Made by a program: the position numbers. From NCBI RefSeq assembly GCF_022846255.1, contig NZ_AP025682.1: a stretch of 64,000 nucleotides of DNA. The stretch is one strand, 5' to 3'. Of the stretch, positions 39,208 to 42,200 are shown piece after piece (position 1 is the stretch's first letter; every line of letters starts with the position of its first letter). This stretch comes from Escherichia coli. Its GTDB lineage: Bacteria; Pseudomonadota; Gammaproteobacteria; Enterobacterales; Enterobacteriaceae.

Positions 39208-42200
39208 TAAGTTCAAATACGGCTAAATACCGTGTGTTCCGCTGAAGTAATACAGAGTGGAACTCACGGTATTTCTATACGCAATAAACAATAACTTTGA
39301 TGTATGTTATTCTATTTAATATATACCATTAATATGTATTAAATAACGATTGATGATAATGTTTTTGGTGTTTTGTTATTTCAAATAATATTAATTTATT
39401 ATGAATTCATTAATATTATTCATGTGATTTATGTTTTATTGCCTCTCTGACAACTCCACGTAAAAATAAATTTTATCATTATCAGCGTGTTATATGTAAG
39501 TATAAACTCACTTATTGCGGCTTTGGATTATTTTAGGTACATTACTAAGCAGCATATATAATATTATTCACTCAATTACTCTTCTAAAGAACCTTCTGGA
39601 ATTAGCCAACGTCAGCTTATTTTTTGTGAGATATAACTTATTAACGCAGAATGTAAAAACACTAATGTTGCTTGGATTTTTTAACAAAAGGAAAGGTATA
39701 AATGAAATTCAATTTATCTAATTTATCCGCAGTATTACTGGCATCAGGTATGCTGATGTCTACTGCGGTAACCGCAGCACCCGGCGATGCAGCACAATTT
39801 GGTGGAGCGGATACTGACTGGAGCACCGTTGATTATCCCAGGCTCACTGATATGGATGACAACGTTGATTCAATGGGGGGGAAAATCCGCTTTACTGGCC
39901 GTGTAGTGAAAGCTACCTGTAAGGTCGCAACCGATTCAAAACAGATTGAAGTTGTCCTGCCGGTTGTGCCTTCCAACCTTTTCACTGGTATCGATGTAGA
40001 AGCACAGGGGGCGAGCAACCAGACCGATTTCAATATTAATCTGACCGAATGTAGCAATACAGAGGATCAGAAAATTGAGTTCCGCTTTACCGGTACCGCA
40101 GATAGCGCTAATAAAACGCTCGCTAACGAAGTAGAAGGATCAACGGATGCTGACAACAGCGGCAATGCGGGGGCGACTGGTGTAGGGATTCGAATTTACT
40201 CCAAAGGTACGACGAATAATGGTCTGATTAACCTGAATACTACTGCGGCAGAGGGTGGCGCCTCCACCGCCGCTTATACAATTCCAGGAAATGCTACGAC
40301 CCATGATTTCAGTGCGGCCTTTACTGCAGGTTATGCTCAAAACGGTAGCACTGTTGCACCAGGTGTAGTTAAGTCAACAGCAAGTTTTGTTGTGCTGTAC
40401 GAGTAAATATAAATACGATTTCAGGTTACAAAAAGTTGTAACCTGAGATTGAAATTATTTAATAGAGTATGAATAACAGGTGTTATTTCATCAACAAGGA
40501 TGCTGTATGAAATGTATTATTGGAAATAAAAAATGGGTTTATGGATTCAGGGATGAATTAAAAGTATCACAAAATATTATACGCTCAGGGATTCTTTTTT
40601 TACTATCGATATTATTTATTAATAATGCGTCCGCGGGCGGGTTTGGCCTTGGCGTAACGCGATTGATTTATCCGGCAGAAAGTAAGCAAATAACACTCAG
40701 TGTGCAAAATAGCGGTGACAACACCAGTTATTTAATTCAATCATGGGTTGATGACAGTAAAACGGAAAAAAAGAGCCAGGATTTTGTTATCACTCCTCCC
40801 CTCTTTATGTTGCCAACGCGTAAAGAAGCTTCATTACGTATCATGTTTCTTGGTAAGACTAATTTGCCGACCGATCGTGAAACTTTGTATTGGATGAATG
40901 TTAAAGCAATTCCGCCAACAGATGAGAAAAATACACAGAAGAATACCTTACAGTTGGCATTACAAAACAAAATCAAGCTATTTTATCGCCCGGAAAATCT
41001 ACCTGTGCAACCAGGAAAAGCACGAAATATGTTGCGGTTTAAGTATGAGGGCAAACAACTAAAAGTTATCAATCCTTCGCCTTATTACCTGACACTGACA
41101 GGAATTAAAGTACAAGGGAGTAAATTGCCCAATATGTTTGTACCACCGAAAAGCGATATTACGGTCTCGTCGCCAGTGACGTTGGCTGGTGAAATTACTT
41201 ATCAAACAATTAATGACTTTGGCGCTACGACGGAGCGGCAGAAAGGAATAATGCAGTAACAACAGAATAGTTCAGATGCAACACAGGTCAGGGATATGAA
41301 CCTAAAGCTCAAAAGATGCGAATATTGGATGGCGGCACAAAAGCAGATGAAACGGGTTGTACCGCTTCTTCTGGTTATTATGCCTGCATGTTCAATCGCG
41401 GGAATGCGCTTTAACCCTGCTTTTCTGTCGGGTGATACTGAAGCTGTTGCTGACTTATCCCGCTTCGAGAAAGGGATGACTTATCTTCCTGGTAGCTATG
41501 AAGTCGAAGTTTGGGTCAATGATTCCCCTTTACTCTCTCGTACTGTAATTTTTAAAGCAGACGATGAGAATCAACTGATTCCCTGCCTTTCACTTGCTGA
41601 CTTATTAAGCCTTGGAATTAACAAAAATGCGCTGCCAGAGCAGGCTTTGGCTTCATCTGAAAATAGTTGCCTTGATTTGCGTATCTGGTTTCCCGATGTG
41701 CATTATATGCCGGAGCTGGATGCACAGAGACTTAAACTGACCTTTCCGCAGGCGATAATAAAACGTGACGCCCGCGGATATATTCCACCAGAACAGTGGG
41801 ATAACGGTATTACAGCTTTTTTGCTGAATTATGACTTTTCTGGTAATAACGATCGTGGTGATTACTCTTCAAATAACTATTATTTAAATCTTCGCGCTGG
41901 GATCAATATTGGTGCATGGCGTTTTCGCGATTATTCAACCTGGAGTCGTGGGAGTAATTCAGCAGGTAAACTGGAGCATATCAGTAGTACGTTGCAGCGC
42001 GTTATTATTCCTTTCAGAAGTGAATTAACGCTAGGAGATACATGGTCATCATCAGATGTTTTCGACAGTGTTAGTATTCGTGGCATAAAACTGGAATCTG
42101 ACGAAAATATGTTGCCCGATAGTCAAAGTGGTTTCGCTCCCACGGTGCGCGGAATTGCGAAAAGTCGCGCTCAGGTAACAATCAAACAGAATGGTTATGT

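What the first reader, a model, noticed from the sequence alone, without database searches (positions are those of the whole stretch)
39211..39701. About 490 bp extremely AT-rich leader upstream of the fimbrial operon
Seen in sequence: long A/T runs and small palindromes (for example ATGAATTCAT), with no coding capacity beyond a spurious 68-aa ORF. Established knowledge: such tracts upstream of horizontally acquired fimbrial operons are typically bound by H-NS, silencing the operon, and may harbour phase-variation switches or small regulatory RNAs. I did not see clear 9-bp inverted repeats of the fim-switch type.
Basis: partly seen in the sequence, partly recalled or inferred. Interest (0 to 1): 0.35.

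Follow-up and report, generated by a model that had tools for sequence, protein, structure and literature searches.

The report
AT-rich promoter region of auf fimbriae
This very AT-rich 491-bp stretch is the ordinary control region in front of the known Auf fimbrial operon of pathogenic E. coli, sitting in an acquired island that published data show is coated by the silencing proteins H-NS and StpA; it is not a flip-switch or an RNA gene.

Summary
Window 39211-39701 has 27.5% G+C, the lowest of any 491-bp stretch in the 64-kb window. It lies between glgP and a seven-gene chaperone-usher operon, which is the known aufABCDEFG operon (CFT073 c4214-c4207) on a ~9.9-kb island between glgP and glpD.

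Comparison with 5,426 complete E. coli genomes finds two deeply diverged island lineages, 557 and 228 genomes. The comparison resolves:
- a conserved hairpin after glgP;
- a non-conserved, 20% G+C distal tract;
- a conserved block holding the best sigma-70 candidate (39515-39543);
- a conserved, unstructured leader.

The leader ends in an NsrR operator (39693-39715) over the aufA start codon, which coincides with a published CFT073 ChIP-seq peak. Published H-NS/StpA ChIP-seq lists every island gene as bound. TosR overproduction induces auf about 40-fold.

So the H-NS reading is supported. The switch and sRNA readings are not:
- inverted repeats are at chance level;
- there is no GATC and no recombinase;
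- all 557 copies are colinear;
- there is no Rfam hit or stable fold;
- the 68-aa ORF is broken in most strains.

Verdict: already known and ordinary, of low interest.

The parts
36763..39210 (+). glgP (glycogen phosphorylase), the conserved backbone gene on the left of the island
   Evidence: Pfam Phosphorylase, E=0. Annotated glgP in all matching genomes.
39211..39701 (+). glgP-aufA intergenic region, which is the cis-regulatory region of the auf operon. It belongs to the island from about 39216 onward.
   Evidence: G+C 27.5%, the lowest in the window. K-12 and the window diverge 4-5 nt after the glgP stop. A full-length colinear copy at 97.3-98.2% identity is present in 557 genomes.
39225..39274 (+). 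Stable hairpin just after the glgP stop, probably the island-supplied terminator of glgP. It is followed by a weak U tract (AUUUCUAUA).
   Evidence: 19-nt arms, 89% complementary. Free energy -26.4 kcal/mol, z -3.8. Conserved in the second lineage with an A-T to G-C double change and a better U tract. The strict terminator scan did not call it.
39290..39470 (.). Distal ultra-AT-rich tract (G+C about 20%). Inferred to be a binding platform for nucleoid-associated proteins (H-NS/StpA) and a possible target of counter-silencers.
   Evidence: G+C 0.199. 39281-39499 is only about 51% identical between the two island lineages, and whole-region G+C is 27-28% in both. BLAST cannot align it between lineages. 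H-NS and StpA occupy the adjoining genes in CFT073.
39316..39344 (.). AT-rich near-palindrome matching the in-silico motif enriched upstream of TosR-responsive genes
   Evidence: PMC5956150 Table S2 lists TTAATATATACCATTAATATATATTAAAT 360 bp upstream of aufA. The window carries it with one SNP. It overlaps inverted repeat I6, 39313-39345. It is not conserved in lineage 2. No binding experiment was found.
39384..39420 (.).
   Evidence: Inverted repeat I4, 17-nt arms, 88% complementary. The central palindrome is broken in CFT073 and O170:H18, and the element is not conserved in lineage 2.
39515..39543 (+). Best candidate sigma-70 promoter of aufA: TTGCGG, 17-nt spacer, TACATT. The predicted start is near 39550, giving a leader of about 150 nt.
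   Evidence: It is the top weight-matrix (PWM) candidate at the same aligned position in all four sequences from both lineages; lineage 2 reads TTGCGA-17-TATATT. It lies in a block that is 77.5% conserved against 42-51% in the adjacent segments. The score alone is not significant, since 138 of 500 shuffles reach it. This is a prediction only.
39557..39562 (+). Invariant TATAAT, an alternative -10 element with a poor -35, or part of the early leader
   Evidence: Conserved ATATAATATT in all four sequences. Weight-matrix (PWM) score 5.6.
39620..39625 (+). Length-polymorphic T tract in the predicted leader (T6 here)
   Evidence: T6 here. Exact-match counts among 553 genomes are T8 in 317 and T7 in 27. 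T9 occurs in CFT073, and 79-bp matches imply T9 in Nissle and ATCC 25922. No genome has T6 with this exact flank. Interrupted in lineage 2.
39629..39639 (-). NsrR half-site (AAGTTATATCT) listed under the CFT073 ChIP-seq peak
   Evidence: PMC5320621 Table 2. Exact match located.
39690..39696 (+). Shine-Dalgarno sequence GGAAAGG of aufA
   Evidence: Its 3' end lies 5 nt upstream of the ATG at 39702. 100% conserved in both lineages.
39693..39715 (-). NsrR 11-1-11 operator (AAATTGAATTTCATTTATACCTT) spanning the ribosome-binding site and the aufA start codon
   Evidence: Identical to the motif under an NsrR ChIP-seq peak centred 3 bp from the c4214 start in CFT073 (PMC5320621). Exact match in the window. 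22 of 23 positions are identical in lineage 2.
39702..46867 (+). aufABCDEFG: major subunit, chaperone, usher, two minor subunits, chaperone, adhesin
   Evidence: Pfam Fimbrial, PapD_N/C, and Usher with PapC_N/C in that order. The locus between glpD and glgP is named the auf operon in PMC12928451. CFT073 c4214-c4207.

Best explanation
The region is the cis-regulatory leader of the known Auf chaperone-usher fimbrial operon. It was carried in with the ~9.9-kb auf island that sits between glgP and glpD. Reading left to right:

1. A hairpin ends glgP transcription (inferred).
2. About 200 bp of roughly 20% G+C DNA follows. Its sequence drifts freely while whole-region G+C stays at 27-28% in both lineages. 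It most likely acts as the upstream end or nucleation zone of an H-NS/StpA filament. ChIP-seq in CFT073 shows that filament covering all island genes. This keeps auf nearly silent in culture. Binding is shown only for the genes. Silencing of the promoter, and the role of this particular tract, are inferred.
3. A conserved block holds the likely sigma-70 promoter at 39515-39543 (predicted).
4. A leader of about 150 nt with no stable structure ends in a fully conserved ribosome-binding site. That site is overlapped by an NsrR operator, which is bound in vivo in CFT073. A regulatory effect of NsrR has not been shown.

Activation would come from relief of silencing: 37 C rather than 23 C, or AT-binding PapB-family proteins such as TosR, whose overproduction raises auf about 40-fold. 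Whether TosR acts directly here is not shown. The control is graded. There is no DNA inversion and no methylation switch.
For: Identity of the locus.

Island status: K-12 lacks it and diverges from the window right after the glgP stop. G+C is 40.5% against 53% in the flanks. It is present in 557 + 228 of 5,426 genomes.

Composition: lowest G+C in the window. G+C is 27-28% in both lineages, although 39281-39499 is only 51% identical.

Footprint: conserved blocks at 39500-39570 (77.5%) and 39636-39701 (87%, with the last 40 nt at 100%), against 73-78% for the coding sequences. The top promoter candidate sits at the same aligned position in both lineages.

Hairpin.

H-NS and StpA ChIP-seq: c4204-c4214 are all listed as bound in wild type, with occupancy much reduced in the hns stpA double mutant (PMC9765446).

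TosR induces aufA by log2 5.3, and there is an AT-rich motif at 39316-39344 (PMC5956150).

Expression is higher at 37 C than at 23 C, RPKM is low, and the proteins are not detected in the proteome (PMC12890032).

NsrR ChIP-seq peak and motif over the aufA ATG (PMC5320621).
Against: - No experiment I could reach shows auf derepression in an hns mutant.
- The ChIP table is per gene, so occupancy of the intergenic DNA itself is not documented. aufA has the lowest occupancy among the auf genes (0.24 against 0.46-0.69).
- The Lang high-affinity H-NS motif has no match with two or fewer mismatches inside 39211-39701; the nearest matches are at 39711-39729, inside aufA.
- There is no A-tract phasing that would suggest intrinsic curvature.
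- The promoter score is within the range of shuffles, and no transcription start data were found.
- The original auf paper (PMC427398) could not be read.
- c4214 is not among the nitrate/NO-regulated genes named in the passages of PMC5320621 that I read, so NsrR binding may have no effect.
- TosR binding to this DNA is untested, and deleting tosR did not change aufA expression in vitro.
Confidence: 0.8

Rival explanations
1. The region contains a fimS-like invertible promoter element that switches auf on and off by site-specific recombination.
For: It is a fimbrial leader of about the right size. Many AT-rich inverted repeats can be drawn, for example a 10-nt perfect pair 165 nt apart, and 31-nt arms that are 71% complementary.
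Against: - The longest perfect inverted repeat is at chance level; 96 of 300 shuffles reach it.
- The fim repeat TTGGGGCCA is absent.
- The island has no recombinase gene. Its genes are all fimbrial, apart from three that match no family.
- All 557 close copies in complete genomes are colinear over at least 80% of the region, and all 42 sampled rows show 100% coverage in one piece.
- The same test on the fim switch gives 265 of 4,722 records without colinear coverage and 268 extra places. Those cases were not individually checked to be inversions.
- Inversions shorter than about 97 bp would escape the coverage count.
Confidence: 0.02
2. A Pap-type epigenetic switch: Dam methylation of two GATC sites competing with Lrp and PapI-like proteins.
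For: Auf responds to a PapB-family regulator, TosR. Pap-like control is common in uropathogenic E. coli fimbriae.
Against: There is no GATC anywhere in 39211-39701; the nearest is at 39193, inside glgP. No papI- or papB-like ORF exists. The only ORFs of 20 aa or more are short, non-conserved ones.
Confidence: 0.01
3. The conserved ~150-nt leader, or another part of the region, encodes a regulatory RNA: an sRNA, a thermometer, or a riboswitch-like element controlling aufA translation.
For: The last ~65 nt are more conserved (87-100%) than the coding sequence (73-78%). auf expression is higher at 37 C.
Against: - No Rfam match apart from a chance miRNA hit (E=0.45) on the glgP hairpin.
- The leader folds no better than shuffles, with z +0.34 and +0.59.
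- The alignment fold gives -6.6 kcal/mol with no compensatory pairs.
- No terminator-like site lies inside the region.
- The conservation is explained by the ribosome-binding site together with the NsrR operator.
- Only two lineages are available, so the power of the covariation test is low.
Confidence: 0.05
4. The T tract at 39620-39625 is a slipped-strand contingency tract that tunes or phase-varies auf expression.
For: Its length varies from T6 to T9 among otherwise 97-98% identical leaders.
Against: - The tracts are short for slippage in a mismatch-repair-proficient E. coli (general knowledge).
- The three T9 strains identified (CFT073, Nissle, ATCC 25922) are, from my own knowledge, all ST73, which fits a lineage-fixed length; T8 is exact in 317 genomes.
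- The tract lies downstream of the predicted promoter rather than in its spacer.
- It is interrupted in lineage 2.
Confidence: 0.07
5. The AT-richness has no function of its own. It is a compositional relic of the donor genome, and only the proximal ~200 bp matter.
For: The distal half is not conserved in sequence. It has no specific H-NS motif and no predicted curvature. Promoter-like hits are no more frequent than in shuffles.
Against: Both lineages keep whole-region G+C at 27-28%, despite about 50% sequence divergence in the distal half, and keep a length of 482-491 bp, while their coding DNA is about 40% G+C. The island is H-NS/StpA-bound in vivo. This rival overlaps the main explanation, because H-NS reads composition rather than sequence.
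Confidence: 0.15

Closest known systems
auf operon regulatory region of uropathogenic E. coli CFT073 (upstream of c4214/aufA; Buckles et al. 2004; Luterbach et al. 2018)
   Same: Same locus, same flanking genes and same gene order. The intergenic DNA aligns end to end with about a dozen differences, including the T-tract length.
   Different: T6 instead of T9 at 39620, and a handful of SNPs. One creates the ATGAATTCAT palindrome and one falls in the TosR-associated motif. No complete genome in the collection is more than 98.2% identical to this copy.
H-NS-silenced promoters of cryptic chaperone-usher operons in E. coli (yad, ycb/elf, yeh and others; Korea et al. 2010; yad in CFT073, PMC13245861)
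   Same: An AT-rich upstream region, H-NS occupancy in ChIP-seq, very low expression in culture, and no phase-variation machinery.
   Different: For yad, derepression by more than 100-fold in an hns mutant is shown. For auf I found only binding data. There is no sequence similarity to any other E. coli locus.
fimS invertible switch of type 1 fimbriae
   Same: A leader of several hundred bp, AT-rich, between a non-structural gene and the major subunit gene. The intergenic length is similar (fimE-fimA is 481 bp in K-12).
   Different: No significant inverted repeats, no recombinases, and no orientation variants.
NsrR-regulated promoters (hmp, ytfE, hcp)
   Same: An 11-1-11 inverted-repeat operator and an in-vivo ChIP-seq peak in CFT073.
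   Different: The operator lies over the ribosome-binding site and start codon, about 150 nt downstream of the predicted promoter, rather than over the -10/-35 elements. No NO-dependent expression change is reported for c4214.

Membership tests
auf (aufABCDEFG) locus of E. coli | Seven genes in the order subunit, chaperone, usher, subunit, subunit, chaperone, adhesin, located between glgP and glpD | tested here: met
   Pfam domains and order. RefSeq context. Named the auf operon, GR24 glpD..glgP, in PMC12928451.
auf (aufABCDEFG) locus of E. coli | Near-identity to the CFT073 c4214 upstream DNA | tested here: met
   End-to-end alignment with CFT073, mean column identity 99%.
Xenogeneically silenced (H-NS/StpA-bound) AT-rich regulatory region | A+T content far above the genome average, on horizontally acquired DNA | tested here: met
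   G+C is 27.5% for the region and 40.5% for the island, against 53% in the flanks. The island is absent from K-12 and present in 14.5% of genomes.
Xenogeneically silenced (H-NS/StpA-bound) AT-rich regulatory region | H-NS occupancy in vivo | tested here: met
   This is a look-up of published CFT073 ChIP-seq, in which c4204-c4214 are all listed as H-NS-bound and StpA-bound (PMC9765446). The table is per gene, so the intergenic DNA itself is not reported.
Xenogeneically silenced (H-NS/StpA-bound) AT-rich regulatory region | Derepression when hns (and stpA) are deleted | not testable with these tools
   No such measurement for auf was found in the papers held.
Xenogeneically silenced (H-NS/StpA-bound) AT-rich regulatory region | High-affinity nucleation motif TCGATAAATT, or intrinsic curvature. 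These are supporting features, not strictly defining ones. | tested here: not met
   No motif match with two or fewer mismatches inside the region. AA/TT periodicity at 10-11 bp is within the range of shuffles.
fimS-type invertible switch | Flanking inverted repeats longer than chance would give | tested here: not met
   Longest perfect repeat is 10 nt, reached by 96 of 300 shuffles.
fimS-type invertible switch | Adjacent tyrosine recombinase gene or genes | tested here: not met
   The neighbours are glgP and aufA, and no recombinase domain occurs in the island.
fimS-type invertible switch | Both orientations seen among genomes | tested here: not met
   557 of 557 copies are colinear. The fim control shows non-colinear records.
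Pap-type Dam/Lrp methylation switch | Two GATC sites in the regulatory region, plus papI/papB-like genes | tested here: not met
   No GATC sites and no such ORFs.
NsrR regulon operator | 11-1-11 inverted-repeat motif and in-vivo NsrR binding | tested here: met
   Exact match at 39693-39715 to the motif under the CFT073 ChIP-seq peak.
NsrR regulon operator | NsrR- or NO-dependent change in expression | not tested
   c4214 is not named among the nitrate/NO-regulated targets in the passages of PMC5320621 that I read.
Known RNA family (Rfam) | Covariance-model match at or near the gathering score | tested here: not met
   The only hit is mir-317 at 18.3 bits against a gathering score of 56, E=0.45, on the glgP hairpin.

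The most novel reading that the evidence does not exclude
The perfectly conserved NsrR operator over the aufA ribosome-binding site and start codon may be functional. It is identical at 22 of 23 positions in two island lineages whose coding DNA differs by about 25%. If it works, Auf would be a nitric-oxide-responsive fimbria: NsrR would act as a roadblock or promoter-distal repressor inside an H-NS/StpA filament, and host NO would be the missing inducing cue for this otherwise silent adhesin.
Probability: 0.2. Interest if true: 0.35.

Novelty: already known. Interest (0 to 1): 0.1.

Why it matters
Auf is a widespread adhesin of extraintestinal pathogenic E. coli whose inducing signal and role in infection remain unclear. 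A map of its control region gives concrete targets for experiments on how silent fimbriae are switched on in the host. That map now has a terminator hairpin, a compositional silencing tract, a candidate promoter, an NsrR operator and a polymorphic T tract. The finding itself, however, is a textbook AT-rich, H-NS-bound leader of a known operon and adds no new kind of element.

Tried and rejected
- Rfam scan at permissive E-value: only a chance miRNA hit.
- Consensus promoter and terminator scan: promoter-like sites number 3, against 4.2 expected, and no terminator was called.
- My own sigma-70 weight matrix (consensus frequencies taken from memory): the best site is not significant on its own. 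I kept it only because of its position-specific conservation.
- Lang H-NS motif: not enriched in the region.
- AA/TT helical phasing as a curvature proxy: nothing above shuffles. I did not run a full wedge-model curvature calculation.
- Inverted and direct repeats: at chance level or not conserved.
- RfaH ops element and the fim inverted repeat: absent.
- Leader RNA folding and alignment folding: no signal.
- Distant BLAST for related leaders at other fimbrial loci: none found.
- By-eye CRP-like half-sites (TGTGA at 39625 and 39423): not conserved in lineage 2, so dropped.
- Literature: the original auf paper (PMC427398) and the strain 536 hns paper (PMC1540026) are not held. A search for transcription-start maps of uropathogenic strains found nothing usable.
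- I did not use the large protein or contig scans, because the locus was identified directly.
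Full report
**What is there.** Window 39211-39701 is the spacer between an 815-aa ORF (36763-39210) and a 234-aa ORF (39702-40406). The first ORF is glycogen phosphorylase, glgP. The second is a fimbrial subunit, followed by a chaperone, an usher, two subunits, a second chaperone and a 376-aa adhesin-like subunit (Pfam). The spacer has 27.5% G+C against 50.8% for the window.

**Identity.** Megablast against 5,426 complete E. coli genomes places the region downstream of glgP in every match. Of these, 557 genomes carry the whole spacer at 97.3-98.2% identity. 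RefSeq context shows glgBXCAP, the seven fimbrial genes, three hypothetical genes and then glpD. A 2026 comparative paper names exactly this glpD..glgP region as the auf operon (PMC12928451). The spacer aligns end to end with the DNA upstream of CFT073 c4214, which is aufA. K-12 has a different 615-bp glgP-glpD spacer containing yzgL. K-12 diverges from the window 4-5 nt after the glgP stop codon, so the whole AT-rich spacer is island DNA. The island, about 39216-49130, has 40.5% G+C against 53% in both flanks.

**Two lineages as a footprint.** A further 228 genomes carry a second form of the island at the same site, for example ST2747 and M11957. Its aufA, aufB and aufC are only 73-78% identical in DNA to the window, while the last 600 bp of glgP are 98.5% identical. 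The two spacers are 60% identical overall. Both have 27-28% G+C, and lengths are 482-483 bp in lineage 2 and 491-494 bp in lineage 1. Identity by segment is as follows:

| Segment | Identity between lineages |
|---|---|
| 39281-39499 | 51% |
| 39500-39570 | 77.5% |
| 39571-39635 | 42% |
| 39636-39701 | 87% (last 40 nt 100%) |

BLAST can align only the proximal ~200 bp between the lineages.

**Anatomy.**
- *Hairpin, 39225-39274.* It has 19-nt arms, a free energy of -26.4 kcal/mol and z -3.8. It is retained in lineage 2 with an A-T to G-C double change and a better U tract. It replaces the canonical K-12 glgP terminator, so it is most likely the glgP terminator. The strict terminator scan did not call it.
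- *Distal tract, 39290-39470.* It is AT-only in places and poorly conserved. It contains an AT-rich near-palindrome at 39316-39344 that equals, with one SNP, the in-silico motif reported 360 bp upstream of aufA among TosR-responsive genes (PMC5956150 Table S2). It also contains the palindrome around ATGAATTCAT, which is broken in CFT073 and absent from lineage 2.
- *Conserved block, 39500-39570.* It holds the top sigma-70 candidate in all four sequences at the same aligned position: TTGCGG-17-TACATT here and TTGCGA-17-TATATT in lineage 2. An invariant TATAAT lies at 39557. The score alone is matched by 138 of 500 shuffles, so this is a conservation-based prediction and not a demonstrated promoter.
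- *Leader.* It is about 150 nt long and has no stable structure (z +0.34 and +0.59) and no covariation. It contains a T tract at 39620-39625.
- *T tract.* It is T6 here, T8 in 317 genomes, T7 in 27, and T9 in CFT073, Nissle and ATCC 25922.
- *Ribosome-binding site.* The fully conserved GGAAAGG (39690-39696) precedes the ATG at 39702.

**Published regulation that maps onto it.**
- *NsrR.* ChIP-seq in CFT073 found a peak centred 3 bp from the c4214 start, with an 11-1-11 motif AAATTGAATTTCATTTATACCTT and a half-site AAGTTATATCT (PMC5320621). Both are present exactly in the window, at 39693-39715 and 39629-39639. c4214 was not named among the nitrate/NO-regulated genes in the passages I read.
- *H-NS and StpA.* ChIP-seq in CFT073 lists c4204 through c4214 as bound by both proteins. 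That covers the three hypothetical genes and aufG to aufA. Occupancy is much reduced in the hns stpA double mutant. The neighbouring entries in the list are feoA and c4232, so the bound domain coincides with the island (PMC9765446, Data Set S1 sheet 1E).
- *TosR.* Overproduction of this PapB-family protein raises aufA by log2 5.3, while a tosR deletion has no effect in vitro (PMC5956150).
- *Expression.* auf is higher at 37 C than at 23 C, has very low RPKM and gives no detectable protein (PMC12890032). It is the one fimbrial system that goes down in serum (PMC13245861).

**Tests of the switch and RNA ideas.**
- The longest perfect inverted repeat (10 nt) is at chance level.
- The fim repeat and the RfaH ops element are absent.
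- There is no recombinase in the island.
- All 557 close copies are colinear. The same query design on the fim switch leaves 265 of 4,722 records without colinear coverage and yields 268 extra places. That is a rough control, because those records were not individually inspected.
- There is no GATC in the region, so a Pap-type switch is excluded.
- Rfam gives only a chance hit.
- The 68-aa ORF is truncated in T7 and T8 strains and in lineage 2.
- The Lang H-NS motif and A-tract phasing are not enriched. The case for H-NS therefore rests on composition and on the ChIP data, not on a specific site.

**Conclusion.** This is the ordinary AT-rich control region of a known, horizontally acquired fimbrial operon that is H-NS/StpA-bound. 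The suggestions of a phase switch or an sRNA are not supported. What remains unknown is the true transcription start, whether hns deletion derepresses auf, whether TosR acts directly, and whether the NsrR operator does anything.

Noticed in passing
window 39216-49130, compared with L003 and L004: The auf island exists in two deeply diverged forms at the same chromosomal site. The coding DNA is 73-78% identical while the adjoining glgP is 98.5% identical. One form is in 557 complete E. coli genomes and the other in 228. This looks like an old allelic replacement or two separate acquisitions.
   Followed up: partly
window 39620-39625: The T tract in the auf leader varies from T6 to T9 among otherwise near-identical leaders. 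T8 is the commonest, exact in 317 of 553 genomes. T9 is read in CFT073 and implied by 79-bp matches in Nissle and ATCC 25922. No complete genome has the window's exact T6 version.
   Followed up: yes
window 40416-40451: A perfect 16-bp hairpin (-21.6 kcal/mol, z -7.0) sits in the aufA-aufB spacer. The core of its stem (CAGGTTACA/TGTAACCTG) is kept in lineage 2 with a different loop. It is probably the usual attenuator or mRNA-stabilising hairpin after a major-subunit gene.
   Followed up: partly
window 47041-49129: Three co-oriented, tightly packed genes (236, 255 and 201 aa; CFT073 c4206-c4204) lie downstream of aufG. They match no Pfam or NCBIfam family above threshold. They are part of the island and are H-NS/StpA-bound in CFT073.
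   Followed up: partly
window 49151-49175: A GC-rich hairpin (GCCCGGTTG ... CAACCGGGC) sits between the last island gene and the convergent glpD. It is probably a bidirectional terminator marking the right island junction. The K-12 spacer with yzgL and its REP elements is entirely replaced.
   Followed up: no
L005 (E. coli HH97, NZ_CP116409.1 609832-613875): A decayed version of the locus lies next to glgP. Only the first ~47 nt of the leader match, followed by frameshifted chaperone and usher fragments.
   Followed up: no
search results: At most two genomes hold extra copies of the leader segment; the counts are consistent with a single genome holding three. Four genomes with a full-length leader gave no match to the 76-78-nt probe around the T tract. 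Neither point was inspected.
   Followed up: no
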